In this document: piece after piece, positions 1 through 61,345 of the stretch
Numbering within the stretch: position 1 is the first letter of the stretch
How the letters are laid out: every line of letters starts with the position of its first letter
Assembly (NCBI GenBank): GCA_037969235.1
Contig: JBBKXA010000091.1
Location: forward strand, 3,627-67,626
Direction: 5' to 3'
DNA length: 64,000 nt
Source: Bdellovibrionales bacterium
GTDB taxonomy: Bacteria > Pseudomonadota > Alphaproteobacteria > Micavibrionales > Micavibrionaceae
Made by a program: the position numbers and the translations under genes
The notes under the pieces: generated by a model
What the model was told of the DNA's origin: nothing
Seen by the model: only the letters and a program-made list of their open reading frames with translations
Databases searched by the model: none

Positions 1-1
1 G

Positions 2-694
2 ACACTCGATAGCCGCTTAATGGCGCTTAATGCCAATGACGGAAGCGTGATTTGGGAATACACAGGCATCAGCGACGAAGCTTCATTGGTCGGTGCACCA
101 AGCGCCGCCGCCAATCAAGACATCGTTGTCCCCGCTTTTTCATCAGGTGAAATCACCGCATTGCGCGTTGAAAACGGCTCGATAGCTTGGAGCGACAACC
201 TTTCCAACGTTCGCGGATTTGGCGGTATTTCTGCCATCACTGACATCCGCGCCCTGCCCGTCATTGATAAAGGTATGATCATCGCCATCAGCTTTTCTGG
301 CCGCCTTGTCGCCATTGATGAACGCACAGGATCGCGCGTCTGGCAACGCCAAATCAGCGGTTCACAAACACCGTGGGTCGCTGGTAATCACGTCTTTATT
401 CTATCCAGTGATAATCGTCTCATCGCATTGGGACGTGATAACGGCTCAATCCGCTGGATCACCCAATTGCCACGCTTTGATGATGGCGATCCCATCTTGT
501 TTTCTGGCCCAGTCTTAGCCGGAGGCCGCCTAATCTTAGCAGGAAGCGAAGGCCGCGTAGTCGAAGTACAACCCGAAAATGGTACGGTCATTCGTGAATG
601 GGAAGCCGAAGGCACAGTGAGCATTCCGCCCATCGTCGCCAACAACACATTATTCCTGCTCGATCGCGACGGAAAGCTGAGCGCCTATCGATAA
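2..694 (+). CDS. bamB: Outer membrane protein assembly factor BamB (PQQ-like beta-propeller), C-terminal part; the 5' end lies outside the window
   Basis: The frame stays open to the window edge, with no in-frame stop upstream of the ATG at 20. It contains repeated beta-propeller blades of the type 'ALNANDGSVIWEY', 'ALRVENGSIAWS', 'AIDERTGSRVWQ' and 'ALGRDNGSIRWI'. It lies in the conserved bamB-der neighbourhood. Confidence 0.75.
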   Translation, partial: TLDSRLMALNANDGSVIWEYTGISDEASLVGAPSAAANQDIVVPAFSSGEITALRVENGSIAWSDNLSNVRGFGGISAITDIRALPVIDKGMIIAISFSGRLVAIDERTGSRVWQRQISGSQTPWVAGNHVFILSSDNRLIALGRDNGSIRWITQLPRFDDGDPILFSGPVLAGGRLILAGSEGRVVEVQPENGTVIREWEAEGTVSIPPIVANNTLFLLDRDGKLSAYR

Positions 695-20778: not shown

Positions 20779-21356
20779 AAAGAATATCCGTCATTATAAA
20801 TATAAGCGCCCTAATCGGCGCATGCCTTCTGGCCTACGCTCTGACGGTGCATTTCGCAAAAGCAAAACCGCAAAACATCACACAACCTGATACTCCGATT
20901 GAGCGATTAGAAAAAAATCAACCAGTTCCTGATTTCACCTTCAAAGACGCAAACGGCGCAGCCCACAACATCAATGATTTCAAAGGCAAAATTGTAATTC
21001 TAAACTTCTGGGCATCATGGTGCCCACCATGCATCAAAGAATTCCCTCATTTCATAAGCGCGGCCAAAGAATTTAACGAAAAAGTCGTTTTCGTCGGCGT
21101 ATCCTCCGACCTTGACCAAACCGCTATGAACACCTTCATGAGCAAAATAAAACTGCCAGAATCAAACAAAAATTTTTATGTGACACTCGATGATAATGGT
21201 GCGATCACTAAAGATATATTCCAAACTCTACGCCTACCCGAAACCATTCTCATTGATACTAACGGCATCATGCGATCCAAAATTATTGGCGCGAATTGGG
21301 ACTATGATGATCTGAAAACACAAATTGCAACCTTGCTTAACTTGCAAGAAAATTAG
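20775..21356 (+). CDS. TlpA/ResA-like membrane-anchored thioredoxin (thiol:disulfide oxidoreductase)
   Basis: An N-terminal anchor is followed by 'ILNFWASWCPPCIKEFP', a CxxC thioredoxin fold. Its start overlaps the ccsA stop (ATGA), indicating one operon. Confidence 0.85.
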   Translation: MKRISVIINISALIGACLLAYALTVHFAKAKPQNITQPDTPIERLEKNQPVPDFTFKDANGAAHNINDFKGKIVILNFWASWCPPCIKEFPHFISAAKEFNEKVVFVGVSSDLDQTAMNTFMSKIKLPESNKNFYVTLDDNGAITKDIFQTLRLPETILIDTNGIMRSKIIGANWDYDDLKTQIATLLNLQEN

Positions 21357-21457
21357 AGTAGAGAAAAATCGTATTTAATGATTCTTGATTTGCTCAAAAT
21401 AATGTATCATACCTTACTTGTTTCAAAATCTGCGCTACCGAAAAAGAAATCCAAATC

Positions 21458-45220: not shown

Positions 45221-46843
45221 ATGTTCGCGCTCAAGAAAAAAAATTCAGGAATAAATATTGCGTTATTAGCGCAAAAACCCGCGGACAATGAAAATTTATC
45301 TCTAACAGGCAAAAAAAACTCTACCATTCAAGTCGACAATTTTAACAGCCGTGACTACGAAACGATGTTCAGCATGTCAAAAGATGCGCTGGTGAGTGTG
45401 AATGATTTTGGTGAGATCATTAAATGCAACAAAGCATTTTTAACACTCAATGGCTTTGATACAACCACTCTAGAAGGCATGCATTTTTTAGATCTGTTCA
45501 CCGAAGCCGACCGTAAATTCATGCGAAGCACCATTCAAACACTCGCCACCACTGAAAATACTCTCGAGGCACCAGGCTTTGCCTTCGAAGCTCAAATGCG
45601 CACCGCGGATGATTCCACCGTAAACATGCATTGGAATATTTGTCTTCGTGACGAAACCCTATATTGTAAAGGCCGCGATATTGGTGCAACGACGCGTCAA
45701 AGCCAAGCATTGAACCGTCGTGAGAAGCAACTGGCGCAAGCTGAATCTATTGGCCGCATGGGGCACTGGAATTGGGTTGTCGGCAAAGAAGCCATCGAAT
45801 GGAGCGACGAAATATATCGCATTTTCGGCGTTGAAAAAGGATCATTTGCACCGACATTGCAAGCCTTGGAAAACCTTGTGCATCGTGAAGACCGCGCCCG
45901 TTTCAACCAAGCTCTTCACCGCGCGATCATCGAAGAAAATAACTATGACATGGAATTTCGCATTTGCCGCGATGACGGTGAAACGCGCCATATCCGTTGC
46001 GAAGGGCGATGCGCCTTTGATGATGAGGGCGAAGTGATAGCCCTTTACGGCATGATGCAAGATATGACGGAACGCATTTTATATGAACGTGATCTGCGTA
46101 GTGCCAAAGATCAGGCCGAACAAGCCTACGCCGCACGCACGCAATTTCTCGCCAACATGTCCCATGAATTAAGGACGCCGCTCAATGCCATCATAGGTTT
46201 TTCCGAAATGATGCAGCGTCAGCTATTAGGGCCCATCGGCACCGAAAAATATCTGGAATATATTGGCGGCATTCGCGAAAGCGGCGAACATCTGCTTGAT
46301 CTCATTAGTGATATTCTTGATATGTCCAAAATCGAAGCTGGTAAATACGACCTCGCCTTCGAAAAAGTCAACATTGCCAAAGTGTTCAAACTCACTTTGC
46401 ATATGGTTGAAGCACGCGCCCAAGATGCGGGTGTACGTATCAAAATGGATAATATATCAGAAGATTTATGCATCATCGCGGATCGGCGTGCAATTTTGCA
46501 AATCGTCCTCAATATCGCATCCAACGCCGTAAAGTTTACTAAAAAAGGCGGCGAGGTGTTTATGAGCGTGCAAGAGCGTGAAGACCATATTTTGCTCAAA
46601 ATCACCGATACAGGCGTAGGCATCCCCGCACACAAAATTGCCAGTGTGACCAAACCATTCGAACAAGTTTCATCTTCTTATGCCCGCGAACATAGTGGCT
46701 CTGGCCTTGGTCTATCTATCACCAAAGATTTAACCGAAATGCATGGTGGATCGCTCTACATCGAATCTAGGCTCGGCGAAGGCACAAGCGTCAGTGTACG
46801 TCTCCCTAAAGACGCCAGCAAAAAAATAAAAAATAGCGTTTAA
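45221..46843 (+). CDS. Cytoplasmic PAS-domain sensor histidine kinase (no TM, no adjacent response regulator)
   Basis: Two PAS-like regions are followed by the HisKA motif 'NMSHELRTPLNAI'. The HATPase motifs 'NAVKFT' and 'GSGLGLSI' are present. Confidence 0.88.
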   Translation: MFALKKKNSGINIALLAQKPADNENLSLTGKKNSTIQVDNFNSRDYETMFSMSKDALVSVNDFGEIIKCNKAFLTLNGFDTTTLEGMHFLDLFTEADRKFMRSTIQTLATTENTLEAPGFAFEAQMRTADDSTVNMHWNICLRDETLYCKGRDIGATTRQSQALNRREKQLAQAESIGRMGHWNWVVGKEAIEWSDEIYRIFGVEKGSFAPTLQALENLVHREDRARFNQALHRAIIEENNYDMEFRICRDDGETRHIRCEGRCAFDDEGEVIALYGMMQDMTERILYERDLRSAKDQAEQAYAARTQFLANMSHELRTPLNAIIGFSEMMQRQLLGPIGTEKYLEYIGGIRESGEHLLDLISDILDMSKIEAGKYDLAFEKVNIAKVFKLTLHMVEARAQDAGVRIKMDNISEDLCIIADRRAILQIVLNIASNAVKFTKKGGEVFMSVQEREDHILLKITDTGVGIPAHKIASVTKPFEQVSSSYAREHSGSGLGLSITKDLTEMHGGSLYIESRLGEGTSVSVRLPKDASKKIKNSV

Positions 46844-47763
46844 ATTTTGCCCGATCCGAATAATGAAAGCGTATAATCTTCCGCTTCCATACACGCCTTT
46901 AAGCCCTCACGGAAATTTTTATATTTAAGCTCATAGCCTAGCGCATTAGTAATCTTTTCGCTACGTACACGCTTGTTATCATTATAGAAACTACGTGCCA
47001 TCAGCGATAACTCTGCCAATTCAAAATCAATGATCGGCGGGACAGGCCGTCCCAATAATTCACAACCATACGCAATAACTTCATGACTTGGTGCGGGCTC
47101 ACAATCGCTCAAATTATATATGCCACTGCTATCTTCCACATCAAAAGACGCCATAATCGCACCCGCTACATCTTCAACGTGAATACGATTAAAAATATGC
47201 CCTTCTTTTTCAACACGCTTTGCCACGCCTGCGCGAATAGAATCCAACGCACTTCGCCCTGGGCCGTAAATCCCCGCAAGGCGAAAAATATGCAATGGCA
47301 AATTATGGTTTTCCGCCAATGATATCCATTGATCTTCCGCTTTTAATCGCCGTTGGCTTCGCTCATTTGTGGGCATTGGCGGGCAATTTTCATCCACCCA
47401 CGCCCCTTGACGGTGACCATAAACACCAATCGTCGATAAATACCCAATCCATTGCAAATTTTTCATCGCCGCAATATCATCGGCATAACGCATAAATACT
47501 GGATCACCATCCGCATCTGGCGGCGTAGAAATCAGTAAATGCGTAGCATCTCGCAATATATATCCCGCATCCGCCAAGGGTTTTTCCTGATCATATAAAT
47601 AGGCACGCACACCCCGATTTTGCATCGCCTTTTTCTTATCGCTATCGCGCGTTGTCCCGGCGATATCCCATTCAGGCATGGTTTGCAATGCATGCCCCAA
47701 ATAATCGCAACAATAACCGTAGCCAAAACAAAAAAGGGACTTTTTACTCAATTTTTTCACCAT
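46840..47763 (-). CDS. NAD-dependent epimerase/dehydratase-like (atypical SDR) protein
   Basis: It has a degenerate Rossmann N-terminus 'LFCFGYGYCCDY' and the motifs 'YLSTIGVYG', 'FRLAGIYGPGR' and 'RIHVEDVA', as in extended or atypical SDRs. Its 3' end overlaps the kinase gene by 4 bp in convergent orientation. Confidence 0.6.
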   Translation of the reverse strand: MVKKLSKKSLFCFGYGYCCDYLGHALQTMPEWDIAGTTRDSDKKKAMQNRGVRAYLYDQEKPLADAGYILRDATHLLISTPPDADGDPVFMRYADDIAAMKNLQWIGYLSTIGVYGHRQGAWVDENCPPMPTNERSQRRLKAEDQWISLAENHNLPLHIFRLAGIYGPGRSALDSIRAGVAKRVEKEGHIFNRIHVEDVAGAIMASFDVEDSSGIYNLSDCEPAPSHEVIAYGCELLGRPVPPIIDFELAELSLMARSFYNDNKRVRSEKITNALGYELKYKNFREGLKACMEAEDYTLSLFGSGKI

Positions 47764-48050
47764 GTCGTATTATTTAACACTATAGCTGTATAGTGCCGAG
47801 CGCAATCATAATACACCCATCATGATTTTTTCAAATCTTTCACTATAAAATCAAAAAAAATCAGAATATTTGATAGGAAATTTATGTTATAATTGAGGAA
47901 CATACCTCGAAACGTTAACCTTTTAGTAAGACATTCTTAACACATTTCATATATTATAGTAGCAATAATATCGCACAACTGTGTGATGTTCAAAAAACGT
48001 AGTGGCGCTAAAGTATTGATTTTAAAGAGAGAAAAACGGGCGAAAACATA

Positions 48051-51050
48051 GTGGGTCAAACAAACACAAAGAAAGTTGCAAAATATATTGTAATGCCTGG
48101 AATATTTCCACGCATTAAGCAATTTCTGACGTCTGGGTTTGGCTATATCGCTTTTCTTATGGCGCAAATATATTCAATGGTGCGCCTTTTGCCACCCCAG
48201 CACCCCTATCTTGATCCAAAAAACATTGGTCATTATGGAATTCGCCACGTCATAGCACAAGCTGCAAACAATTTGGTCATGAGCAAAAAGAATATAGATC
48301 AAATTATAGTCTTCATCCTGATGCTTACGGGCGTAGTTTTAATTTTAGTCCAGCTTGGCGCCGTATTGTTTAGTGTTATTTTCGGCTCCGCCATGGCTTT
48401 GCCAACCATTTTTGAAACTGTAAACCCCGATAATGACATTGCTTTTATGTTGCTCGACCAAGTTTTTGGAGTTGGTGCATTACAAGCTGGTGGCACACCA
48501 TTTTTTAATTCATGCGTTTCGCAAGAAATAAGGTGTTTTCCAACAGATATAAATGGGCGGACATTCCCTTGGCCATTCCATTACGCTCTGCAGAACCTGT
48601 TTCGTTTTTATTCGCTAGGTATTTTGGTCATAGGTACAATTATTTTCCTATATTTTATGATGGTTATCGTCGTCGAAACTGCCACTTCGGGCACGCCCTT
48701 TGGTCAGCGCTTTCAAAATGTATGGGTACCCATTCGCCTTGTTATGGCCGTAGGGCTTTTGATCCCTTTAGGGTTTGGTTATAATGCTGGTCAATATATC
48801 ACTTTTATGTCTGCGAAGCTTGGCTCTGGCATGGCCACCAATGGCTGGATTGCGTATAATCGCGGTATCGAAACACCTGGGCCTGGCTCCACCTTAACAG
48901 CAAATAACGCAACAGGTGAGGACGAAAATTTAATTGCCATGCCCGCACAACCTGACGCCGCAATTTTTGCACAAATGATGTCCATCGTGCACTCGTGCGC
49001 TTTTGCGCACTATTTGCACAACCCACTTATTACCCAAGGTAGCGGCACAGCAAGAAACAATTCAATAAATGTACAGTTTCCGGAAAATCAATTCACCGCC
49101 ATTTGGTACTATTTCAATCCAAAAGCTGTAAAGCCATATTACGTAAAAGCAGAATCCCCTTGGCAAACGGGCGGGACCGTTGCAGAAGGCTTTCCGCTCG
49201 TACCCGACCCCTACCAAGAAGCTTTAGATTTTTATTCAAGTGGCGATATTATCATTCGTTTTGGGCGTGATGACCCTAATGGCTATTCTAATGATGAATA
49301 TACAGGAAAAATTGAACCCACCTGCGGAGAAATTCGTATTCCGATTAGTGACCGCAGAAAAACAACTAACACATCCATGCACATTCCCGGACCAGGAGAA
49401 GATAATGCTGGATATTTAGGCAGTGTAGCTCTCCAGCGTTTTTACTTTAATCTTATTAGCAGACTCTGGGGAGGATTTGGCATGTCCGAGGATTATATCG
49501 ATTTTGCTGGCCGCATGACAATGCTCTCCTCGCCTAAAGATAAGAGTGACAATGCTCATACACCCTGCGAAATGGGATGTGCAGGGCCAGTTGGCGTAAA
49601 TCCAGGACTCCCTGGCGGTGGCTGTGGAGCACCTGATTACCGCACCTCTGCTTGTGCACGAGACCCTGTCACATCGCTTTGGAAACAAAGAGCCATCGAT
49701 AAACTACAATTAGAAATCAATACCAATTTCGGCAATATTTGGCGCAATTATAATCAAGGCACCAATCAATTCGATACCACAGCAGAAATGCGCGATCGTG
49801 GCTGGGGCGGAGCAGGAATATGGTTCAATACCATCGCCGCAGTAAATGGCGCGTTTGTTGCTTCTGCCCTTGACGTGCCCTCCCTTACAACATATCCGCT
49901 GTTAATGGAAAAAGTACGTGCCGAAAAAGTTGGAAAAGACACGGGCGCTAGTGGTATTGAACTCTTTAATCCGAACGCATCCATTGATGGGCGAGAAGTT
50001 GCAATTAAAGAACTTGGCCCCGATGCAATGCCAGCGGCCAAATCAATGTATCACGTCATTGAATATTGGAATCAAGACAGTGCCAACATGGCGCATGCCA
50101 GCAAAACAACCAGTGCTGGCGCCATGGAAGACGCCATGAATATTATTTTTGGTACATATGGTTTATTTGCCATGACCGACGACAATGAGAATATCCACCC
50201 ACTTTCACAACTGGTGACGCTGGGCAAAGGCCTTGTTGAATCGGCTGTACGAAACGTGACGGGGGCTTCTCTTGCCTCAGCTATGGGCGGTGCTGCAAAA
50301 GCTATGGACACCTCCGCAGGACCTCTAGTCCAAGCGGCAAGTGGATTTTTAATGTCCACAGCCTTTGTTGGGCTCACGGCTGGGTTTGTTTTATACTATG
50401 TCCTACCATTTTTGCCTTTTGTGTATTTCTACTTTGCGGTCGCATCATGGTTAAAAACTATTTTCGAAGCCATGGTCGGCGTACCATTGTGGGCATTGGC
50501 GCATTTAAGATTGGATGGAGACGGCCTGCCTGGTGATTCCGCTTCCAACGGCTATTTTCTCATATTTGAAATTTTCATTCGCCCTATCCTGACCGTAGCA
50601 GGCTTAGTGGCCGCATTATTAATCTTTACCGCGCAAGTACGCATCTTAAACTTTATATGGCCAATTGTTACAAATTCAGTAGGCGGGTTTAACACTGATC
50701 CACTGGCAACACCAGCATTAGTCGCTGACCTTGCATTCAAAAAGCCGATTATTGACCAATTCTTCTACACTGTTATTTACGCGATTATTGTGTACATGCT
50801 GGCCACGACATCATTTAAACTGATTGATAAAATTCCTGACAACCTTTTGCGTTGGATGGGACAGGGCGTATCATCCTTCGGGGACCTCGATCAAGATCCA
50901 ACACAAAACCTTACCCGTTACGCGGCCATGGGTGGTATGACCGCCGGCCAACAAGCAGCGCAAGGAATTAATCAATTAGCCGGTGGATTAGGCGGCGGAG
51001 CTGGGCAAATATTAACTGGTGGCGGTACGTCCAAAATACCAGGTAGATAG
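48051..51050 (+). CDS. Large polytopic membrane protein, paralog 1 of 3; DotA/TraY-like architecture (family assignment tentative)
   Basis: The protein is 999 aa. The GTG start is supported by alignment of its N-terminus with the two downstream paralogs. About 8 hydrophobic segments are arranged as 4 N-terminal, a roughly 500-aa Cys-containing loop, then 4 C-terminal. Shared motifs are 'GIRHVIAQAANN', 'ETATSGTPFGQRFQNVWVPIR', 'GWGGAGIWFN', 'LPFLPFVYF' and 'PLWALAHLRLDGDGLPG'. Confidence 0.7.
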   Translation: MGQTNTKKVAKYIVMPGIFPRIKQFLTSGFGYIAFLMAQIYSMVRLLPPQHPYLDPKNIGHYGIRHVIAQAANNLVMSKKNIDQIIVFILMLTGVVLILVQLGAVLFSVIFGSAMALPTIFETVNPDNDIAFMLLDQVFGVGALQAGGTPFFNSCVSQEIRCFPTDINGRTFPWPFHYALQNLFRFYSLGILVIGTIIFLYFMMVIVVETATSGTPFGQRFQNVWVPIRLVMAVGLLIPLGFGYNAGQYITFMSAKLGSGMATNGWIAYNRGIETPGPGSTLTANNATGEDENLIAMPAQPDAAIFAQMMSIVHSCAFAHYLHNPLITQGSGTARNNSINVQFPENQFTAIWYYFNPKAVKPYYVKAESPWQTGGTVAEGFPLVPDPYQEALDFYSSGDIIIRFGRDDPNGYSNDEYTGKIEPTCGEIRIPISDRRKTTNTSMHIPGPGEDNAGYLGSVALQRFYFNLISRLWGGFGMSEDYIDFAGRMTMLSSPKDKSDNAHTPCEMGCAGPVGVNPGLPGGGCGAPDYRTSACARDPVTSLWKQRAIDKLQLEINTNFGNIWRNYNQGTNQFDTTAEMRDRGWGGAGIWFNTIAAVNGAFVASALDVPSLTTYPLLMEKVRAEKVGKDTGASGIELFNPNASIDGREVAIKELGPDAMPAAKSMYHVIEYWNQDSANMAHASKTTSAGAMEDAMNIIFGTYGLFAMTDDNENIHPLSQLVTLGKGLVESAVRNVTGASLASAMGGAAKAMDTSAGPLVQAASGFLMSTAFVGLTAGFVLYYVLPFLPFVYFYFAVASWLKTIFEAMVGVPLWALAHLRLDGDGLPGDSASNGYFLIFEIFIRPILTVAGLVAALLIFTAQVRILNFIWPIVTNSVGGFNTDPLATPALVADLAFKKPIIDQFFYTVIYAIIVYMLATTSFKLIDKIPDNLLRWMGQGVSSFGDLDQDPTQNLTRYAAMGGMTAGQQAAQGINQLAGGLGGGAGQILTGGGTSKIPGR

Positions 51051-51078
51051 TAAATTAGTATGAAAGCAAAAAAATAGT

Positions 51079-53874
51079 ATGAGTAGTTTTACAAAAAGAG
51101 ATTTTATAAATTATGCGGTGTTGCCGGGTTTCCGCCAACGCTTGCAGGATCTTTTGGAAAGCGGCTTTCAATATATCCCCTATTTTATCGCAATTGTATA
51201 TGGCGCTGTACGTCTGTTACCTGAAGGTCATCCCTACCTCAGCCCAGTGAATATGGGGCGCTTCGGTATTCGCCATGTCATTGCCGAAGCCGCAAACAAT
51301 ATCGTTTTATCCAGAAAAAATATTGACCAGATTTTATTATTTGTCTGTGTGCTTTTTGGATTAATAATTGTGATTCTTCAACTTATTTTACTGTTCACAG
51401 GTATTGTCATCCAGCCAGTAATGGCCCTACCAACGATGCCCACAAATTTTGCTGGATTTTTTGTCACACCAAATCCTGAACAAGATCTTGCCCACATCAT
51501 GCTTGATATGGTGTTTGGAATACCCAATTTATTCGATTCCTGTGTCGGCACTGGCACAGCTTGCCGCAATATTTTTGGAACGGCCATTGTCAAAGATGCT
51601 GGAGCACCTGGAGGGGTGTGGCTTATGGAAGGAACAGCCCTACCTTTCCCAATTCACCGCGGCTTACATGAACTTTTTTATATCTATAATATCGGCCTAA
51701 CCATCGTGGGTGTATTCATCGCCTCATATTTCATAGCGACCGTTGTGTTGGAAACCGCACAAACAGGTACACCAATGGGCAAGCGTTTTAACAAAGTCTG
51801 GGCGCCTGTACGCTTTGTCGTCGCCTTTGGCCTTCTCTTTCCGATCACCTACCATTTAAGTTCTGCGCAATATATTGTGCTTTATGCGGCGAAATTCGGC
51901 TCTGGCTTTGCCACAAACGGCTGGACAATGTTTTATGAAACGATGAATTATTATAATCCTAAAACCTTGCTGCCAGGGGTCACAGATAATGACCCAACAG
52001 TGCCTTCAGCCACAGGTCATGTGGCCAAACCACAAACACCTGATTTGACTGGCCTTATCCAGTTTTTATTCGTAGCCAAAGCGTGTGCAGATGCACACAA
52101 GCTGGCCTACCCATCTATGTTAAACATCGAGCCTTACATCGTAAAAAACACGGTCAGCACAGTACCATATTATCAATTCACTGTTGCGAGTGGCACTCCA
52201 GCCGAATATGATAATATCATTAATTTTATTGAAGGCGAAAATAAAATAATAATCCGCTTTGGTTATCCCAGCGCCCGAGACAACCCAAATGCGATGGGAA
52301 CAATAGCGCCAATTTGCGGTGAATTAAATTATACGGTCACCGATCCAAGACTATCTAGCATTCCAGCAAACCCAGATACAGCTGCAGAGCCCGCCATCGT
52401 TGCTTTGCAAATGCAACATTTACAAATAATATCAAATATGTGGTATTCGTGGCTAGACAACCTAGGGATAAATGGGGAACCTAACGTGCCCGACCGCTTC
52501 GCTAGAAGATACGCGCAATTTAATGCAACTAAAGCATATGACCCCAATCTCGTCATTCCAGATATCTCTTACAAGCGCGCGCTTATTGATTCATCACAAG
52601 CATTTTTAGAAGGCGTCATCAACGCCAGTGTAGATGTGCATGAGCAATCAAACAGCCAGGATTTTTACAAAGCCACCTTTACCGAAAAAGGTTGGGGCGG
52701 CGCTGGTATTTGGTTTAATAAAATTGCCGAATTAAATGGCTCCTTTTCATCAGCCGTTCTCAACGCCCCAACGCCAACAAGCTTTCCTTCAATCATGGAA
52801 AGTGTTTATGCCGAAAAGCGCCAAGGAGAAGAAGGACTCGACTTTGCAGAGCGTTTTAATCCGCGATCCAATAATGGTCAAGCTTCGGAGAGCTTGTCAG
52901 AAACGGATAAAAAAATCGCTTACGTACTTTGGAACGCCTATAACTATTGGGAAGACGTGACAAGCTCATCGTACACCGCACCGACAGGAAACAACATTAT
53001 CGACATAATCAATGCGTTATTCGGCACTGAAGGCTTGTTTAATATGCGTAAAAACGAAGGTGTACACCCGCTGGCACAACTCGCAGGTGTCGGTCGATCA
53101 TTGGTCGAAGGCGCTGTACGTAACCTCAGCTACGCCGCTATTGGCGGGGCAAGCGGCGGATTGGCAAGACTTGCGGATGCCGCAGGTTTCGCAGGAGCCG
53201 CGTCTAACGCTTCAAGCTTCCTCATAACATTCGCGATGATCGGTTTAACGGCGGGATTCGTTTTATTTTATGTTGTACCGTTCTTACCATTTATATACTT
53301 TTTCTTCGCACTTGGCGGCTGGGTGAAGGGCATATTCGAAGCCATGGTCGGCGCGCCGCTATGGGCATTGGCGCACTTACGTATTGATGGGCACGGTCTA
53401 TCAGGGCAGGCTGCCGTGAGCGGTTACTTCCTAATATTCGAAGTGTTCTTACGCCCGATACTCATTGTATTCGGTCTACTCGCAAGTATTTCCATTTTCT
53501 CTGCCCTCGTGAGTGTTTTAAATCAAATTTTTGATTTGGTTGTTATGAATGTGGGCGGCTTTGATGCAAAATATGAAATGACTGGCGCTGGAGCTTCTAG
53601 CAAAATGGGTGTAATGCGCTCGGCATTAGATAAGTTTTTCTACACCATTATTTACACTATTATTGTCTATCTCATTGGAATGTCCTGTTTTAAACTCGTC
53701 GATTTAATTCCGAACAATATTCTGCGGTGGATGGGGCAATCCGTGGCAACATTTGGCGACCAACAGGAAGATTTTGGACAAAGCTTGGTGGGCACGTCTA
53801 CCATGGGCGCGCAACAAACACTCGGCTCACTCAGTGGAGGTCTACAAAAAATGGCTTCAATTGGTAAATCCTAA
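51079..53874 (+). CDS. Large polytopic membrane protein, paralog 2 of 3; DotA/TraY-like architecture (tentative)
   Basis: The protein is 931 aa and begins 28 bp after paralog 1. Shared motifs are 'GIRHVIAEAANN', 'ETAQTGTPMGKRFNKVWAPVR', 'GWGGAGIWFN', 'VPFLPFIYF' and 'PLWALAHLRIDGHGLSG'. Confidence 0.7.
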   Translation: MSSFTKRDFINYAVLPGFRQRLQDLLESGFQYIPYFIAIVYGAVRLLPEGHPYLSPVNMGRFGIRHVIAEAANNIVLSRKNIDQILLFVCVLFGLIIVILQLILLFTGIVIQPVMALPTMPTNFAGFFVTPNPEQDLAHIMLDMVFGIPNLFDSCVGTGTACRNIFGTAIVKDAGAPGGVWLMEGTALPFPIHRGLHELFYIYNIGLTIVGVFIASYFIATVVLETAQTGTPMGKRFNKVWAPVRFVVAFGLLFPITYHLSSAQYIVLYAAKFGSGFATNGWTMFYETMNYYNPKTLLPGVTDNDPTVPSATGHVAKPQTPDLTGLIQFLFVAKACADAHKLAYPSMLNIEPYIVKNTVSTVPYYQFTVASGTPAEYDNIINFIEGENKIIIRFGYPSARDNPNAMGTIAPICGELNYTVTDPRLSSIPANPDTAAEPAIVALQMQHLQIISNMWYSWLDNLGINGEPNVPDRFARRYAQFNATKAYDPNLVIPDISYKRALIDSSQAFLEGVINASVDVHEQSNSQDFYKATFTEKGWGGAGIWFNKIAELNGSFSSAVLNAPTPTSFPSIMESVYAEKRQGEEGLDFAERFNPRSNNGQASESLSETDKKIAYVLWNAYNYWEDVTSSSYTAPTGNNIIDIINALFGTEGLFNMRKNEGVHPLAQLAGVGRSLVEGAVRNLSYAAIGGASGGLARLADAAGFAGAASNASSFLITFAMIGLTAGFVLFYVVPFLPFIYFFFALGGWVKGIFEAMVGAPLWALAHLRIDGHGLSGQAAVSGYFLIFEVFLRPILIVFGLLASISIFSALVSVLNQIFDLVVMNVGGFDAKYEMTGAGASSKMGVMRSALDKFFYTIIYTIIVYLIGMSCFKLVDLIPNNILRWMGQSVATFGDQQEDFGQSLVGTSTMGAQQTLGSLSGGLQKMASIGKS

Positions 53875-53951
53875 TAGAAAAGCGCAAATAATAACGTAGG
53901 AAGTATTTTGTTTAAATTCATACCACATAAGAAAGCAGGACAGAGTTTCAA

Positions 53952-56714
53952 ATGGCAACAAGCCGCGGCATATTAAAAAAGACTTTATTACCGGGAATCA
54001 TCCCGCGTATTTTGTCGCTGTTTAAATCGGGCTTCGTCCAAATGGCTTACTGCATTGCATTGGTCTACGCCAATGTACGTCTCCTACCGCCAAATCACCC
54101 CTATCTTAATCCCCAAAATATTGGCAGCTTCGGTATACGCCACGTCATTGCCGAAGCCGCAAATAATCTGGTTTTCAAAAGACAGAATATTGACCAGATT
54201 TTTATCTTTTTTCTCATCATGGCTGGTTTTGTTTTAATAATAATGCAATTTGGTCTATTGGCCATCGCCCTGCTTGCCGAACAACCCGCATTGGCTTTGG
54301 GCATTTTAAATGTTACGGAACTATTCGAAAACCCAAATACCGCCACCGGCTCACAAGGCCCCGCGCAGGATATAGCCTTCATTCTCATGGATCGGGTTTT
54401 TGGCGTAAAAGGATTTTTTGATTCTTGCGTATCGGATACTGCTGTAGCTTGTCTGTCTATGGACGGCGTAACACCTTACCCAACTCCCACAACGTATCCA
54501 TTTGCTTTTCACATTGGCCTTCATAAAATTCTACAGTTTTATTCGAATGGAATATTCCTCGTTGGCGTAATGGTCATCATTTATTTTGTCATTGCTGTAA
54601 CCGCAGAAACCGCGCAAACAGGAATGCCCTTCGGCCAGCGTTTCAACAAAGCATGGGTACCTGTTCGTTTTATCCTGTTTTTCGCGCTCATCATGCCTAT
54701 TAATATCGGTCAAGATAACGAGGGCTTTAATCTTGCACAACTCATCACATTTAAAGTCGTGCAGATGGGATCAAACTTTGCATCCAATGGATGGGCCTTT
54801 TTTAACAATGGTTCTACAGCAGGCGGCCCATTAACCCCAGGTTTATCCGACAGCTACATGACCCAGCAATATGACATGATCGCCACACCCAACGTCCCGG
54901 ACATCACCGAGCTTGTACACACGATGTTTGTCGCCCGCACATGTGCAACGGCATATCATTTCGTCAAAGGAACCGAAGACGGATTTTTAATCGATGCTTA
55001 TGTTATTCGCCAATCCACCCCTGGACTACCTTCCACAGTAAACGGCGGTGCAGGCGTTTTAGCAGATTCAATCCCTTTGGAAACAACAACCTATATAGCA
55101 GCAAGGGATTTTTCTTATAATGGCAATTTAACTATCCGTTTTGGTGAACGCCTTCGCCCTGGAAGTCAGTTAGAGACCGACAAAGGAGATGAATACAGAA
55201 ACTACGCCGGTGGCGTCAAACCCTATTGCGGGGATGTAACCATTCAAATTCAGAGCCAAACCCAACCCGCCGCAGAATTCATTTTCAACCAATATTATAA
55301 TATGATGCAAGGCATGTGGCTTGACACCAACCAAATTAGCCGCGCGCGTTGCATCGCTTATAAATATATAAATTCCAACTTAGAGCCAAACTGCACACCA
55401 CAACCCACAGAAGCTTGGGCAACATCACAAACAACAGCATACCAATTGGCACTCGTAGCCTACGTTCAAGGCGGAATTAATCAACAAAGAGCATTAGCGG
55501 ACTTTGATGTGAATGCTAATCTTATCTCACGCGGTTGGGCGGGAGCCTCAATATGGTATAATCGCATCGCAGATATGAATGGCGCCGTCACAGCGGCCGC
55601 ATATAATATCCCTAAAAGCTCAAAAGCACCATGGATTTACGAAATTGCTGCCAAAAGCGCCGCACAAGAAAATGAGATGGTCACATCCGCTATGATGAAC
55701 AATCAAGCCATGGCAAGCCGTTTAGGCTTAAACACTTTACTTGATATCGAAGAAGGAGAACGTGAAATTCTTCAAGCTATGAACTATGCCAATGGTTTTT
55801 GGAAAAGCAAAAGCGTCAATAATTTTCAAAATAAAACTGATCATATCTTGATTGATTTTATTAATGCCGTCATGGGAACAAGCGGGATTTTTGAAATGCG
55901 TAAAAACACAAATGTGCACCCACTCGCACAACTCAGCGCATTGGGCAAAGGTATGATGGAGGCCGTTAGCCGTAACGCCGCTTATGGCTTAGTCCTTAGT
56001 GGAGCAACATCTCTAGGCTTTACAATGGGTGATATCACTGGCGACATGGTTGGCGTGGCCAAAGGATTTTTCTTTACAATGGTTATGACGACCATGGCCA
56101 TGTCGGCGATTTTATATTATGTTCTGCCATTCCTACCCTTTATATATTTCCTATTTGCCATCAGCGGCTGGATCAAAAGTATATTCGAAGCCATCGTTGC
56201 AATGCCTTTGTGGGCACTCGCGCATTTACGCATTGACGGTGAAGGTATATCAGGCCCCGGAGCCACTAATGGGTATTTCTTATTACTTGAAATTTTCCTC
56301 CGCCCCATACTTATTTTATTCGGTTTCGTGGCCAGCATATCTATTTTCTCTGCTCTCGTAAGTGTACTGAACCAAATCTTTGATCTGGTCGTGGGCAATG
56401 TCGGCGGGTTTGATAATGAGTTTGAGCAAACGGGCGCCCTCATCCAAATGCTTGACGTCGCGCGCAACCCAATTGATGAATTTTTCTATACCGCCATGTA
56501 TGTCATCATCTGCTACTTAATCGGAATGTCATGTTTCAAACTCGTTGATAATATACCCAACAGCATCTTGCGCTGGATCGGGTCTTCTGTTCCTACAATG
56601 CAAGAACAATCGCAAGACCCTGCTGGCAAGCTAAGCAGTCAAGTTTTCCGTGGTACAAACCTTCTTGGAAACCAAATGCGTGGCAAAATGGGCGGCGATG
56701 TGGCGCTGATGTAA
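53952..56714 (+). CDS. Large polytopic membrane protein, paralog 3 of 3; DotA/TraY-like architecture (tentative)
   Basis: The protein is 920 aa and begins 77 bp after paralog 2. Shared motifs are 'GIRHVIAEAANN', 'ETAQTGMPFGQRFNKAWVPVR', 'GWAGASIWYN', 'LPFLPFIYF' and 'PLWALAHLRIDGEGISG'. Confidence 0.7.
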   Translation: MATSRGILKKTLLPGIIPRILSLFKSGFVQMAYCIALVYANVRLLPPNHPYLNPQNIGSFGIRHVIAEAANNLVFKRQNIDQIFIFFLIMAGFVLIIMQFGLLAIALLAEQPALALGILNVTELFENPNTATGSQGPAQDIAFILMDRVFGVKGFFDSCVSDTAVACLSMDGVTPYPTPTTYPFAFHIGLHKILQFYSNGIFLVGVMVIIYFVIAVTAETAQTGMPFGQRFNKAWVPVRFILFFALIMPINIGQDNEGFNLAQLITFKVVQMGSNFASNGWAFFNNGSTAGGPLTPGLSDSYMTQQYDMIATPNVPDITELVHTMFVARTCATAYHFVKGTEDGFLIDAYVIRQSTPGLPSTVNGGAGVLADSIPLETTTYIAARDFSYNGNLTIRFGERLRPGSQLETDKGDEYRNYAGGVKPYCGDVTIQIQSQTQPAAEFIFNQYYNMMQGMWLDTNQISRARCIAYKYINSNLEPNCTPQPTEAWATSQTTAYQLALVAYVQGGINQQRALADFDVNANLISRGWAGASIWYNRIADMNGAVTAAAYNIPKSSKAPWIYEIAAKSAAQENEMVTSAMMNNQAMASRLGLNTLLDIEEGEREILQAMNYANGFWKSKSVNNFQNKTDHILIDFINAVMGTSGIFEMRKNTNVHPLAQLSALGKGMMEAVSRNAAYGLVLSGATSLGFTMGDITGDMVGVAKGFFFTMVMTTMAMSAILYYVLPFLPFIYFLFAISGWIKSIFEAIVAMPLWALAHLRIDGEGISGPGATNGYFLLLEIFLRPILILFGFVASISIFSALVSVLNQIFDLVVGNVGGFDNEFEQTGALIQMLDVARNPIDEFFYTAMYVIICYLIGMSCFKLVDNIPNSILRWIGSSVPTMQEQSQDPAGKLSSQVFRGTNLLGNQMRGKMGGDVALM

Positions 56715-60628: not shown

Positions 60629-61345
60629 ATGAAAACAAAAAGTGAACAAAAAAATGTGAATGATCCTATCCGCGTCGCTGAACGAGGCAACGCTTTAATC
60701 TACGTTCTGATCGTCATTGTATTATTCGCAGCCCTTTCCTTTACCCTCATGCGTCAAGGTGATGACTCACAAAGCTCTGGGTTAAGCGATGAAAAAGCCG
60801 AGCTCTACGCCACGCAAATTATTTCTTACGCCGCACAAGCTCGATCCGCTGTTCAACAAATGCTGTTTACAGCATCCACAAAGGTCAGCGAACTTGATTT
60901 CACAACGCCCAATGAAGCCAACTTTGATACAGGCGCACTTATACATAAAATATACCACCCCCAAGGCGGCGGATTAACCGCAGCCACCCTGCACGCACCC
61001 GCAATATCACAAACAACAACAGACCCACAGGCTGATTGGTATTTCGGAGAATTTAACAATGTTGATTGGAGCAAAACCGCCGCAAATGATGTCATACTTG
61101 TGGCCTATCAAATCGCCCCGAAAGTATGCGGATTAATTAATAAAAAAGTGAATGGCACAACCACAATCCCAACCATCACCGCCCCCATTCGCAACGTCAT
61201 GATAGATGCCGCCCACCATAGCGGTGCAAACGTTGCATTCACTACTGATACAGGTGAAATTTGCTCTGAATGCCGCAACATGGCCTCACTCTGCGTACAA
61301 GAAGGCGGAATATATGCGTTCTACACCATTATCGCCGATCAATAA
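60629..61345 (+). CDS. Hypothetical protein with a PilX/pseudopilin-like N-terminal hydrophobic helix and C-terminal cysteines
   Basis: The sequence 'ERGNALIYVLIVIVLFAALSFTLM' is followed by a long amphipathic helix and 'CSECRNMASLC'. It has no canonical G|FTLIE prepilin site. Confidence 0.5.
   Translation: MKTKSEQKNVNDPIRVAERGNALIYVLIVIVLFAALSFTLMRQGDDSQSSGLSDEKAELYATQIISYAAQARSAVQQMLFTASTKVSELDFTTPNEANFDTGALIHKIYHPQGGGLTAATLHAPAISQTTTDPQADWYFGEFNNVDWSKTAANDVILVAYQIAPKVCGLINKKVNGTTTIPTITAPIRNVMIDAAHHSGANVAFTTDTGEICSECRNMASLCVQEGGIYAFYTIIADQ

What the first reader, a model, noticed from the sequence alone, without database searches (positions are those of the whole stretch)
48051..56714. Tandem triplet of ~920-1000-aa polytopic membrane paralogs with DotA/TraY-like architecture and no other secretion-system genes in 64 kb
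Three consecutive same-strand genes, separated by gaps of 28 and 77 bp, encode clearly homologous proteins of 999, 931 and 920 aa.

All three share one layout:
- a near-invariant N-terminal module;
- about 4 hydrophobic segments, including 'ET(A)(T/Q)(S/T)G(T/M)P(F/M)G(Q/K)RF(Q/N)(N/K)(V/A)W(V/A)P(I/V)R', followed by a hydrophobic helix;
- a roughly 500-aa divergent central region with conserved cysteines and a 'GW(G/A)GA(G/S)IW(F/Y)N' motif;
- about 4 more hydrophobic segments carrying '(L/V)PFLPF(I/V)YF' and 'PLWALAHLR(I/L)DGxG(L/I)(P/S)G';
- divergent tails.

Eight TM segments, a central periplasmic loop of about 500 aa and a total of about 1000 aa is the published topology of Legionella DotA, the T4BSS inner-membrane and secreted component. 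The 'TAxxG...G.RF...W.P.R' stretch reminds me of the DotA/TraY family core, but I cannot verify that from memory. A second model is the tandem VirB6-like expansion of Rickettsiales (rvhB6a-e, virB6-1..4), which also produces arrays of giant polytopic paralogs.

No dot/icm gene and no virB3/virB4 gene is seen anywhere in this window. The flanking genes are housekeeping (SDR, histidine kinase, L,D-transpeptidase, ilvA). No integrase, transposase or tRNA flanks the cluster. Composition looks like the rest of the window by eye only.

A stand-alone, triplicated DotA-like module embedded in core chromosome would be an undescribed arrangement. It could be an autonomous membrane or secretion device rather than part of a canonical T4SS.
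Basis: partly seen in the sequence, partly recalled or inferred. Interest (0 to 1): 0.85.

Follow-up and report, generated by a model that had tools for sequence, protein, structure and literature searches.

The report
Triplicated chromosomal DotA-like membrane proteins
Three adjacent genes encode distant relatives of DotA, the central channel protein of the Legionella type IVB secretion machine, and the same trio is a conserved core-chromosome feature of Micavibrio-like predatory bacteria with none of the usual secretion-machine genes nearby.

Summary
Three same-strand ORFs (999, 931 and 920 aa; gaps of 28 and 77 nt) are 36-40% identical paralogs. All three pass the curated DotA/TraY family model (251-285 bits, cut-off 100). 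All three fail the DotA equivalog model (161-194 bits, cut-off 500). An AlphaFold model of the middle one matches only Legionella DotA among solved structures (E 4.6e-12).

They form a distinct subfamily. An ~84-aa conserved cytoplasmic module plus an extra membrane helix replaces the signal peptide of canonical TraY.

The trio is ancient. In 82 distinct loci from Micavibrio-like genomes, including cultured M. aeruginosavorus, clade A is always first, B second and C third. It lies in conserved core synteny. None of 17 other T4BSS components is detectable in the window or in about 1.9 Mb of flanks.

In M. aeruginosavorus ARL-13 the trio (GMV_196-198, "putative membrane protein") is transcribed in both phases and is higher in attack phase. 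The genome paper reported no type IV secretion system. Its ORF table does list one "icmO" gene elsewhere. I could not retrieve that sequence.

Most likely this is a T4BSS-derived inner-membrane channel that works without the canonical envelope machine. Its function is inferred, not shown. I found no paper describing it.

The parts
48051..51050 (+). Paralog A (999 aa), a DotA/TraY-family protein. Clade A is always first in the array.
   Evidence: ORF. TIGR04346 251 bits against a cut-off of 100. It falls in clade A, where 76 of 76 members are at position 1.
51079..53874 (+). Paralog B (931 aa), a DotA/TraY-family protein. This is the one that was modelled.
   Evidence: TIGR04346 285 bits. PDB DotA 9ngy E=1.2e-20. 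AF2 pLDDT 83.7, pTM 0.80. Foldseek DotA E=4.6e-12. Clade B has 70 of 70 members at position 2.
53952..56714 (+). Paralog C (920 aa), a DotA/TraY-family protein.
   Evidence: TIGR04346 268 bits. Clade C has 60 of 61 members at position 3.
51079..51330 (+). In paralog B: subfamily-specific N-terminal module (aa 1-84), basic, helical and predicted cytoplasmic. The equivalents are 48051-48302 in A and 53952-54203 in C.
   Evidence: K+R 9-10 against D+E 2-6 in paralogs A and B. pLDDT above 90 from aa 31. Many invariant residues. Outside the DotA/TraY profile. No PDB or plasmid match.
51331..51648 (+). In paralog B: an extra membrane helix TM0 (aa ~85-111), then a first periplasmic loop (aa 112-190) with a conserved Cys pair (C155, C162).
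   Evidence: Hydropathy. Long helix 79-111 in the model. Conserved Cys. Canonical TraY has a cleavable signal peptide here.
51649..51858 (+). In paralog B: the TMI - ETAQTGTPMGKRF loop - TMII hairpin (aa 191-260), which is the start of homology to DotA/TraY.
   Evidence: Profile position 25 aligns to aa 195. DotA residues 59-151 align to aa 198-293. One of the two most conserved regions (57-66% within clades, 46-53% between paralogs).
51859..53178 (+). In paralog B: the extended domain (aa 261-700), predicted periplasmic, divergent between paralogs, with conserved Cys336/Cys413 and the GWGGAGIWFN motif.
   Evidence: Topology from hydropathy and the DotA architecture. 31-33% identity between paralogs. 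Mixed helix/strand model.
53179..53733 (+). In paralog B: the C-terminal hydrophobic-helix core (aa 701-885) carrying PFLPFIYF and PLWALAHLRIDG. It is equivalent to DotA HH1-HH5.
   Evidence: Aligns to DotA 733-844 and 911-984. Long helices 705-767, 777-825 and 842-871. 59-67% identity within clades and 51-57% between paralogs.
53734..53874 (+). In paralog B: the paralog-specific C-terminal tail (aa 886-931) and the stop codon.
   Evidence: 45-49% identity within a clade but only 23-27% between paralogs.
47764..48050 (.). Upstream intergenic region of 287 bp, the likely promoter region of the three-gene operon.
   Evidence: Only weak promoter-like hexamers at 47928-47957. No terminator-like site falls in either intergenic gap of the triplet. 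Short gaps are the rule across genomes, with medians of 23 and 28 nt.

Best explanation
**Shown**
- The three genes are an operon-like array of three anciently diverged paralogs (A, B, C) of the DotA/TraY family.
- They belong to a distinct subfamily. The cleavable signal peptide of canonical TraY is replaced by a conserved ~84-aa cytoplasmic module and an extra membrane helix.
- The array is vertically inherited. It is fixed in order A-B-C in the core chromosome of Micavibrio-like epibiotic predators.
- It is physically separate from any recognisable T4BSS gene.
- It is transcribed in M. aeruginosavorus.

**Inferred**
- In Legionella, DotA forms the pentameric inner-membrane and periplasmic chamber of the secretion channel. 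By analogy, A, B and C assemble into an oligomeric inner-membrane chamber. The membrane helices form the wall, and the disulfide-bonded extended domains project into the periplasm.
- The assembly is probably a hetero-oligomer of the three paralogs. All three have been kept, in fixed order and with short gaps, for the whole history of the lineage.
- The added cytoplasmic N-module and the paralog-specific C-tails would be the docking sites for cytoplasmic partners.
- The best candidate partner is the DotL/IcmO-like ATPase annotated elsewhere in the ARL-13 core genome.

**Speculative**
- The assembly moves macromolecules across the predator's inner membrane as part of prey attack or feeding.
For: **Family and fold**
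- TIGR04346 scores of 251-285 bits against a cut-off of 100, for all three proteins.
- PDB DotA match at E=1.2e-20, over the TMI/TMII and HH regions.
- AF2 pLDDT 83.7. Foldseek's only significant hit is DotA 9ngy (E=4.6e-12, TM 0.38/0.41).

**Subfamily traits**
- The N-module lies outside the family profile.
- It is absent from the PDB and from canonical plasmid systems.
- Canonical TraY starts with a signal peptide.
- 771 representative clusters score E<=1e-30. Most of the best 150 align from about residue 1.

**Ancient triplication**
- Same-position identity is 47-58%, against 36-42% between paralogs.
- Clades: A 76/76 at position 1, B 70/70 at position 2, C 60/61 at position 3.
- 74 of 84 loci have exactly three copies.
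- Gaps have medians of 23 and 28 nt.

**Core chromosome**
- Synteny ABC-F | A B C | MlaC MlaA LptGF PepA is seen in about 65 genomes.
- The window is colinear with ARL-13 GMV_348..228.
- The triplet is outside the genomic islands.
- GC content is the same as the flanks.

**No partners nearby**
- 17 of 18 MPF_I proteins give no hit in the window plus 83 loci.
- The same seeds find partners at metagenomic T4BSS loci.

**Expression**
- GMV_196/197/198 have attack/attachment GEI of 11.9/3.9, 4.8/1.7 and 3.6/2.8. Only 33.4% of genes are transcribed in attack phase.

**Topology**
- The N-terminus is basic.
- Conserved cysteines occur in even numbers in the predicted periplasmic parts.

**Candidate partner**
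- GMV_383 is labelled 'icmO', is in the core genome and has GEI 4.3/3.5.
Against: - In Legionella, DotA does not assemble alone. The DotA-IcmX protochannel needs IcmX and DotG. No homolog of either was found near the triplet.
- Hetero-oligomerisation is inferred only from conservation. A 1:1:1 ratio does not fit a pentamer.
- In about 11 genomes, including M. aeruginosavorus, the copies at positions 2-4 form clades of their own. A few of these genomes have four copies.
- The icmO link rests on a 2011 annotation label. I did not see the sequence, and I did not test co-occurrence with the triplet.
- The link to predation is circumstantial (lineage distribution and attack-phase transcription from a single RNA-seq experiment).
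- The mapping of GMV_196-198 to the triplet is by synteny and gene length, not by sequence.
- The TM-score to DotA is only about 0.4.
Confidence: 0.5

Rival explanations
1. The three paralogs are not subunits of one complex. Each forms its own homo-oligomeric DotA-like channel with a separate role (sub-functionalisation), for example different substrates or different life-cycle stages.
For: - Legionella DotA is a homopentamer.
- The extended domains and C-tails are paralog-specific.
- The ARL-13 GEI values differ about three-fold among the three genes in attack phase.
- Copy number is not strictly fixed. Four-copy arrays occur, and lineage-specific clades occur in about 11 genomes.
Against: - The order is fixed and the gaps are very short or overlapping in most genomes. 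That pattern is typical of co-translated subunits.
- The helices that would form lateral contacts are the most conserved parts across paralogs.
- In no complete locus has only one or two of the clades been retained. The two-copy loci are mostly cut by contig ends.
Confidence: 0.25
2. The triplet is an ordinary component of a complete but dispersed type IVB secretion system. The other genes lie elsewhere in the chromosome and were missed by older annotation.
For: - The ARL-13 ORF table has a gene labelled icmO (GMV_383) followed by hypothetical genes GMV_384/385.
- The 2011 annotation called the triplet itself only 'putative membrane protein', so divergent components could have been overlooked.
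- I could not scan a whole Micavibrio genome.
Against: - The ARL-13 genome paper states there is no evidence for a type III or IV system.
- Its ORF table has no label containing dot, virB, virD, trbI, traD, traG, conjugal transfer or DNA transfer.
- No partner lies in 64 kb of window or +/-10 kb in about 80 genomes, whereas canonical T4CPs are usually clustered with partners.
- Triplication and the N-terminal module are not features of any canonical T4BSS seen here.
Confidence: 0.15
3. The proteins have left secretion altogether and serve envelope biogenesis or maintenance, for example lipid or LPS traffic, as suggested by the conserved neighbours MlaC, MlaA and LptF/G.
For: The triplet is adjacent to mlaC-mlaA-lptGF in about 65 genomes.
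Against: - The neighbours are on the opposite strand.
- That adjacency is lost in the window, while the triplet stays intact.
- In ARL-13 the neighbours have the opposite expression pattern (GMV_192-194 attack-phase GEI 0-0.7, against 3.6-11.9 for the triplet).
- T4SS-driven lipid mixing in Legionella depends on DotG, not DotA.
Confidence: 0.08
4. The triplet is a decaying remnant of an integrated conjugative element and has no current function.
For: The DotA/TraY family is mostly plasmid-borne: 1305 plasmids match, and 965 of them are conjugative. ARL-13 carries ICE-like islands.
Against: - Intact ORFs of 860-1100 aa occur in about 80 species-level genomes, with 47-67% identity within clades.
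- Order and synteny are conserved.
- No integrase, transposase or relaxase lies nearby, and the GC content is native.
- The triplet is outside all ARL-13 islands.
- It is transcribed.
Confidence: 0.02

Closest known systems
Legionella pneumophila DotA (Dot/Icm T4BSS; PDB 9ngy/9nh0)
   Same: - Same family model (TIGR04346) and the only significant fold match.
- Same core plan: a TMI-TMII hairpin, a large disulfide-containing periplasmic extended domain, then a bundle of long hydrophobic helices.
- Similar size, about 900-1050 aa.
   Different: - About 15% identity, and well below the DotA equivalog cut-off (161-194 against 500).
- No cleavable signal peptide. Instead there is an ~84-aa cytoplasmic module and an extra TM helix.
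- Three paralogs rather than one gene.
- No IcmX, DotG or other Dot/Icm genes nearby.
- Core chromosome of a bacterial predator rather than a virulence locus of an intracellular pathogen.
TraY of IncI / IncL/M conjugative plasmids (MPF_I mating-pair formation system)
   Same: Same DotA/TraY family. Homology covers TMI/TMII and the C-terminal helix core.
   Different: - TraY is about 730 aa, single-copy, and has a signal peptide.
- TraY sits inside a full tra/trb cluster (TraH-TraX, TrbA-C) on a mobile plasmid.
- Identity is below 30% and is mostly limited to aa ~739-920 of the window protein.
Tandem VirB6-like expansions of Rickettsiales (rvhB6a-e / virB6-1..4) (comparison from my own knowledge of that literature)
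   Same: - A tandem, same-strand array of unusually large polytopic paralogs of the VirB6/DotA structural class, kept across a whole lineage.
- The 2025 structure paper describes DotA as structurally similar to VirB6.
   Different: - Those are TrbL/VirB6-family proteins and belong to a complete type IVA (rvh) system.
- The window proteins have no Pfam TrbL/VirB6 hit.
- They match VirB6/TrwI structures only at E>1.
- They have no other T4SS genes nearby.
Single DotA/TraY genes on alphaproteobacterial megaplasmids (Bosea sp. RAC05 pBSY19_1, Azospirillum ramasamyi)
   Same: - The closest plasmid relatives by coverage. Bosea has 22% identity over aa 193-927.
- They also lack detectable MPF_I partners within +/-20 kb, on replicons typed non-mobilizable.
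   Different: - Single copy.
- No Micavibrio-type N-module.
- Surrounded by transposases, recombinases and hypothetical genes rather than core genes.

Membership tests
DotA/TraY family (NCBIfam TIGR04346) | Whole-protein score above the curated cut-off of 100 bits | tested here: met
   251.1, 284.8 and 268.4 bits for the three proteins. In B and C the match spans profile positions ~25-656.
DotA/TraY family (NCBIfam TIGR04346) | DotA fold: a TMI/TMII hairpin, an extended periplasmic domain and a C-terminal bundle of hydrophobic helices | tested here: met
   The AF2 model (pLDDT 83.7) matches only DotA 9ngy_FP1 (E=4.6e-12, prob 1.0, TM 0.38/0.41). The sequence alignment covers TMI/TMII and the HH regions. 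The TM-score is modest.
DotA/TraY family (NCBIfam TIGR04346) | N-terminal cleavable signal peptide, as in DotA and TraY | tested here: not met
   The N-terminus is a basic ~84-aa module followed by a TM helix. K. pneumoniae TraY starts MNKSRNSLVALLPLSLFITPAYSA. DotA is described as having a signal peptide. No dedicated signal-peptide predictor was run.
DotA/TraY family (NCBIfam TIGR04346) | Encoded together with other T4BSS/MPF_I genes (IcmX/TraW, DotG/TraO, DotO/TraU, DotB/TraJ, DotL/TrbC and others) | tested here: not met
   17 of 18 MPF_I proteins give no hit at E<0.01 in the window plus 83 related loci. A positive control worked. The genome-wide state was not testable. There is one 'icmO' label in ARL-13.
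T4BSS protein DotA, equivalog (NCBIfam NF033886) | Score above the curated cut-off of 500 bits (true DotA orthologs) | tested here: not met
   166.2, 194.2 and 161.5 bits, and only the C-terminal third aligns well.
TrbL/VirB6 family (Pfam), including Rickettsiales RvhB6 arrays | Significant match to the TrbL/VirB6 profile or to the VirB6 structure | tested here: not met
   No Pfam family at E<=1 for any of the three proteins. TrwI/VirB6 chains of 7o3v/8rtd match only at E=1.7-5 with prob<=0.14.
Functional DotA-IcmX protochannel (Legionella type) | Pentamer capped by IcmX and caged by DotG, at the axis of an envelope-spanning machine | not testable with these tools
   Oligomeric state and partners cannot be computed here. 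No IcmX/TraW or DotG/TraO homolog is found near the triplet.
Integrative/conjugative or other mobile element | Integrase, relaxase or transposase, tRNA-flanked insertion, atypical composition, patchy distribution | tested here: not met
   No such genes in the window. GC content is native. Synteny is conserved in about 65 genomes. The triplet is outside the ARL-13 islands. No tRNA scan was run.

The most novel reading that the evidence does not exclude
Micavibrio-like epibiotic predators have stripped a type IVB system down to its central channel protein and triplicated it. They gave it its own cytoplasmic docking module, and perhaps kept only a DotL-type ATPase. They use this minimal DotA-based translocon, without the canonical outer-membrane core complex, as the conduit through which the predator injects factors into attached prey or draws material from it. 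That would be a new class of contact-dependent transport device. It would also be the first molecular handle on how 'leeching' predation works.
Probability: 0.15. Interest if true: 0.9.

Novelty: new variant of a known kind. Interest (0 to 1): 0.65.

Why it matters
DotA was recognised only recently (2025 in-situ structures) as the central, gated protochannel of the Legionella Dot/Icm machine. There it depends on IcmX and DotG.

A large, old subfamily of DotA-like proteins lives as a fixed three-gene array in the core genome of a whole predatory lineage. It has its own cytoplasmic module and no recognisable T4BSS neighbours. This suggests that the DotA chamber can be used outside the canonical machine.

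It gives T4SS structural biologists a natural 'minimal' system, and possibly a heteromeric one. It also gives predation biologists three specific genes, transcribed in attack phase, to knock out. M. aeruginosavorus is culturable, and how it feeds from the prey surface is unknown.

At the practical level, current annotation calls these genes 'DotA/TraY family protein' or 'type IV secretion protein DotA'. That wording could mislead automated inference into reporting a type IV secretion system in genomes where none has been found.

Tried and rejected
1. **Known transporter or other fold.** Rejected. No Pfam hit. Foldseek hits to MATE, MurJ, PPase and others are all at E>0.2.
2. **VirB6 membership.** Rejected.
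3. **Mobile-element origin.** Rejected.
4. **Source contig.** Exact look-ups of the window's own proteins found no contig on record.
5. **Identity of the N-terminal module.** No match to any PDB sequence at E<=10. No match to canonical T4BSS plasmid loci. Its origin stays unknown.
6. **Fetching the Micavibrio 'icmO' gene.**
   - No T4CP-like protein lies in the 84 loci held. The large P-loop candidates turned out to be a PBP1 and a KAP NTPase.
   - No window gene could be placed near GMV_383 in the ARL-13 table.
   - A metagenome scan with a six-sequence DotL/TrbC alignment returned only canonical T4BSS loci.
7. **Seeds from other plasmids.** The Bosea and Azospirillum plasmid loci were tried as sources of alphaproteobacterial T4BSS seeds, but they hold no recognisable partners. 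Accession AP005147 (R64) is not in the plasmid collection.
8. **Lipid-mixing literature.** Checked as possible support for a lipid role. It implicates DotG, not DotA.
9. **Promoter and terminator scans.** Uninformative.

Full report
**1. The observation**

The window holds three consecutive + strand ORFs:
- 48051-51050 (999 aa)
- 51079-53874 (931 aa)
- 53952-56714 (920 aa)

They are separated by 28 and 77 nt. The proteins are 36-40% identical to each other. GC content of the triplet (0.444-0.451) matches the rest of the window.

**2. What the proteins are**

Pfam gives no hit at E<=1. NCBIfam places all three in the DotA/TraY family. TIGR04346 scores are 251, 285 and 268 bits against a curated cut-off of 100. 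All three are far below the cut-off of the DotA equivalog model NF033886 (166, 194 and 162 bits against 500). They are therefore family members, not DotA orthologs.

The only solved structure with sequence similarity is Legionella DotA (9ngy, E=1.2e-20). The alignment covers the first TM hairpin and the C-terminal hydrophobic helices.

An AlphaFold2 model of the middle protein, built on 122 sequences, has mean pLDDT 83.7 and pTM 0.80. Foldseek against the PDB finds one significant match, DotA in the DotA-IcmX protochannel (E=4.6e-12, probability 1.0, TM 0.38/0.41). VirB6/TrwI appears only at E=1.7-5, and transporters only at E>0.2.

A known transporter family and VirB6 membership are both excluded.

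**3. How they differ from canonical DotA/TraY**

The family profile starts at about residue 190-195. The first ~190 residues are an addition, with three parts:
- a basic module of about 84 aa (K+R 9-10 against D+E 2-6 in paralogs A and B), helical, modelled with confidence from about aa 31 (pLDDT above 90), with many invariant positions
- a strongly hydrophobic helix at aa ~85-111 ('TM0')
- a loop of about 80 aa with a conserved cysteine pair

A profile of this region matches nothing in the PDB at E<=10. It matches nothing significant in canonical T4BSS plasmid loci.

K. pneumoniae IncL/M TraY begins with a classical signal peptide. Legionella DotA is described as signal peptide + TMI + TMII + extended domain + five hydrophobic helices.

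The inferred topology rests on the positive-inside rule, conserved cysteines in even numbers, and homology to DotA:
- N-module in the cytoplasm
- TM0 running outward
- loop 1 in the periplasm
- the TMI/TMII hairpin
- a 450-520-aa periplasmic extended domain
- the hydrophobic-helix core
- the tail

Mean identity by region:

| Region | Within a clade | Between paralogs |
|---|---|---|
| TMI-TMII | 57-66% | 46-53% |
| Hydrophobic-helix core | 59-67% | 51-57% |
| N-module | 53-56% | 48-49% |
| Extended domain | 39-40% | 31-33% |
| C-terminal tail | 45-49% | 23-27% |

The C-terminal tail is paralog-specific.

**4. Distribution and age of the triplication**

A homology search found 885 relatives. 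The 120 listed are nearly all unnamed or labelled 'DotA/TraY family protein', and come from Micavibrio, Alphaproteobacteria, Rhodospirillales or 'Bdellovibrionales' MAGs. NCBI taxonomy still files Micavibrio under Bdellovibrionota, which explains the last label.

A scan of one genome per GTDB species found 325 matching stretches. The best 80 gave 79 loci. All are from such MAGs, plus the complete genome of M. aeruginosavorus HCB189.

Findings across the loci:
- Of 84 loci held, 74 have exactly three tandem same-strand copies.
- Five loci show four entries. Four of these are real four-copy arrays and one is a split gene.
- Five loci show two copies. These are mostly cut by contig ends.
- Proteins at the same position in different genomes are 47-58% identical. 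Paralogs within a genome are 36-42% identical.
- In a neighbour-joining tree of 232 full-length copies, clade A holds 76 sequences, all at position 1 and from every lineage. Clade B holds 70, all at position 2. Clade C holds 61, of which 60 are at position 3.
- The window's genes are A, B and C in that order.
- In about 11 divergent genomes, including M. aeruginosavorus and the four-copy loci, the copies after A form clades of their own.
- Gaps between the genes have medians of 23 and 28 nt, and they often overlap.

An exhaustive phmmer search of 1.84 billion representatives gave 4,756 relatives at E<=0.001 and 771 at E<=1e-30. The best 150 were nearly all 785-1,069 aa. Most aligned from about residue 1, so they include the N-module. 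The subfamily is large and old.

**5. Genomic context**

In about 65 genomes the array sits in the same core neighbourhood: ABC-F ATPase (+) | A B C (+) | MlaC, MlaA, LptG, LptF (-) | PepA, a radical-SAM protein, HolC (+).

The window looks different at first sight. However, the published ORF table of M. aeruginosavorus ARL-13 shows that window positions 20-47763 are colinear with GMV_348 down to GMV_228. The shared genes include BamB-like, Der, CvpA, RadA, heparinase-like, Rpe, Xth, DnaX, NAD-GDH, UbiA, COX2/1, CtaB/G, COX3, M23 peptidase, SpoU, acetoacetate-CoA ligase, DsbD, AhpC and a sensor kinase.

In ARL-13 the triplet (GMV_198-196) lies about 29 genes further on, in the same orientation. 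The window therefore has the ancestral arrangement minus that block, with different genes on the far side (YkuD transpeptidase, threonine dehydratase, RmuC, EngB, YidC). Both flanks have been rearranged while the three genes stayed together.

Neither the triplet nor the icmO-labelled gene lies in any of ARL-13's nine genomic islands.

**6. Are there partner genes?**

The ORFs of at least 150 aa that I took as genes were annotated, nearly all by NCBIfam or Pfam. None is a secretion component.

I took 18 MPF_I/T4BSS proteins from a K. pneumoniae IncL/M plasmid: TraH/DotD, TraI/DotC, TraJ/DotB, TraK/IcmT, TraM/DotI, TraN/DotH, TraO/DotG, TraP, TraQ, TraR, TraT, TraU/DotO, TraW/IcmX, TraX, TraY/DotA, TrbA/DotM, TrbB and TrbC/DotL. 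I searched them against all six-frame ORFs of the window and of 83 Micavibrio-type loci, about 1.9 Mb in total. Only TraY/DotA hit (245 ORFs). The other 17 gave nothing at E<0.01.

As a control, the same seeds found DotM, DotB, DotC, DotO, IcmX or DotA next to the T4CP in most of 33 metagenomic T4BSS loci with GC from 0.28 to 0.70.

At genome level I depend on the literature. [quoted passage not shown] Its ORF table has no label containing DotA, TraY, dot, virB, virD, trbI, traD, traG, conjugal transfer or DNA transfer.

The table does contain one gene labelled 'icmO'. IcmO/DotL is the T4BSS coupling ATPase.
- It is GMV_383, 2583 nt long.
- Its GEI is 4.3/3.5.
- It lies next to dnaA-dnaN-recF-gyrB-argS.
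- Hypothetical genes of 582 and 1215 nt follow it.

I could not obtain this sequence. It remains a lead, not a result.

**7. Expression**

By synteny and gene length, the ARL-13 triplet is GMV_196 (2694 nt), GMV_197 (2763 nt) and GMV_198 (2742 nt). All three are annotated 'putative membrane protein'. The markers are Ttg2 and VacJ on one side. On the other side are Peptidase_M50 (1305 nt = the 434-aa M50 protein of L070, confirmed by Pfam) and the 1680-nt ABC-F gene.

| Gene | GEI attack | GEI attachment |
|---|---|---|
| GMV_196 | 11.9 | 3.9 |
| GMV_197 | 4.8 | 1.7 |
| GMV_198 | 3.6 | 2.8 |

The paper counts GEI<0.7 as not expressed, 0.7-10 as low and 10-25 as medium. It reports that only 33.4% of genes are transcribed in attack phase. 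The triplet is therefore on in free-swimming, prey-seeking cells. Its housekeeping neighbours GMV_191-193 read 0-0.1 in that phase. This is one experiment without replicates, and the mapping is not by sequence.

**8. Mechanism**

Shown:
- family and fold
- the subfamily-specific N-terminal addition
- ancient A-B-C triplication
- core-chromosome location
- absence of T4BSS partners nearby
- transcription

Inferred:
- In Legionella, DotA is a pentamer whose membrane and hydrophobic helices form a chamber. Its disulfide-rich extended domains sit in the periplasm, capped by IcmX and caged by DotG, whose N-terminal TM helices pack against DotA TMI/TMII. By analogy, the Micavibrio-type proteins most likely build an oligomeric inner-membrane chamber.
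- Keeping three diverged paralogs in fixed order with coupled spacing argues for one hetero-oligomer rather than redundancy.
- The cis-encoded TM0 might take the place of the DotG helices. The cytoplasmic N-module and the paralog-specific tails are the natural docking points for a cytoplasmic motor, and the icmO-labelled gene is the obvious candidate.

Speculative:
- That the device serves prey attack or feeding rests only on lineage distribution and attack-phase transcription.

The main objection is that Legionella DotA-IcmX cannot assemble without IcmX and DotG.

**9. Comparison and novelty**

The closest known proteins are Legionella DotA and plasmid TraY. They share the family, the fold and the core plan. 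They differ as follows:
- identity of about 15-30%
- a signal peptide instead of the N-module
- single copy
- location inside a complete T4BSS

The Rickettsiales RvhB6 arrays are the nearest parallel in arrangement, but they belong to a different family and to a complete T4ASS. That comparison is from my own knowledge. Membership was tested and not met.

Family membership is already reflected in public annotation ('DotA/TraY family protein'). However, I found no paper that mentions Micavibrio together with DotA, Icm or DotL, and none that uses the family name. The cultured organism's genome paper treated the genes as anonymous membrane proteins.

I rate this a new variant of a known kind. The subfamily architecture is new, as is the arrangement: triplicated, core-chromosomal and detached from the T4BSS.

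**10. Verdict**

The finding is real and is not an artefact. Autonomy is unproven because of the one icmO lead. The feature is lineage-wide rather than peculiar to this genome. Interest is 0.65.

Noticed in passing
window 20-47763: The window is colinear, almost gene for gene, with M. aeruginosavorus ARL-13 GMV_348 down to GMV_228. This identifies the source as a Micavibrio relative, although its DotA-like proteins are only about 40% identical to those of M. aeruginosavorus. The ~29-gene block GMV_199-227, which separates this region from the triplet in ARL-13, is absent here.
   Followed up: partly
M. aeruginosavorus ARL-13 GMV_383 (not in the window); table in PMC3189940 Additional file 4: A 2583-nt gene labelled 'icmO' (the DotL-type coupling ATPase) lies next to dnaA-dnaN-recF-gyrB-argS and outside all genomic islands. 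Its GEI is 4.3 in attack phase and 3.5 in attachment phase. It is followed by hypothetical genes of 582 and 1215 nt, and the second is about the size of DotM. The genome paper nevertheless reports no type IV secretion system.
   Followed up: partly
M. aeruginosavorus ARL-13 GMV_222, GMV_223, GMV_225 (not in the window): Three more large 'hypothetical' genes (2271, 2691 and 2715 nt; GEI 0 in attack phase and 0.7-1.6 in attachment phase) lie in the block that is missing from the window. Their sizes resemble the triplet, but they are not labelled as membrane proteins. Their identity is unknown.
   Followed up: no
L001:6850-10008 (paralog A), L068 paralog A, L002:12875-15847 (paralog C), and P0002: A few orthologs end in a Peptidase_S74-like tail (SD(I/R/P)RLKENI...GVMAQD...). 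This is the self-cleaving intramolecular chaperone domain known from phage tail fibres. Only 3 of 246 copies have the motif, and none is in the window.
   Followed up: partly
L084 (Bosea sp. RAC05 pBSY19_1) 19170-22106; L085 (Azospirillum ramasamyi plasmid) 18069-20624: The nearest plasmid relatives are single DotA/TraY genes on large plasmids typed as non-mobilizable. They have no detectable MPF_I partner within +/-20 kb. Solitary DotA/TraY genes may therefore be more common in Alphaproteobacteria than is assumed.
   Followed up: partly
L066, L072, L074, L077 (four tandem copies); L070, L071, L073, L075, L082: A divergent sub-lineage that includes M. aeruginosavorus has three or four copies. 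The copies after A form clades of their own rather than falling into B and C. This points either to independent duplications or to fast divergence there.
   Followed up: partly
L047:3-3221 and 16 other loci, 3-5 genes upstream of the triplet: A large protein (700-1359 aa among the 14 members of at least 550 aa) with no Pfam hit is conserved on the same strand upstream of the array in 17 genomes. A DUF3137 protein is conserved at position -2/-3 in 17 genomes.
   Followed up: no
L070:3425-5557 (- strand): M. aeruginosavorus HCB189 carries a 710-aa KAP-family P-loop NTPase between the ABC-F gene and the M50 peptidase, just upstream of the triplet. No gene of that size is listed at this place in the ARL-13 table, so it looks like a strain-specific insertion.
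   Followed up: no
window 695-1237, 3613-4185, 30674-31564, 46840-47763, 60629-61345: Five ORFs of 180-307 aa have no Pfam hit at E<=0.001, and the two that were also scanned against NCBIfam (695-1237 and 3613-4185) have no hit there either. The 238-aa ORF at 60629-61345 has homologs in two of the other loci.
   Followed up: no
window 48001-54000: GC skew over the triplet is near zero (-0.01 to -0.02), while the rest of the window is clearly negative (-0.05 to -0.27). GC content is unchanged. This may reflect the amino-acid composition of these membrane proteins rather than foreign origin.
   Followed up: no
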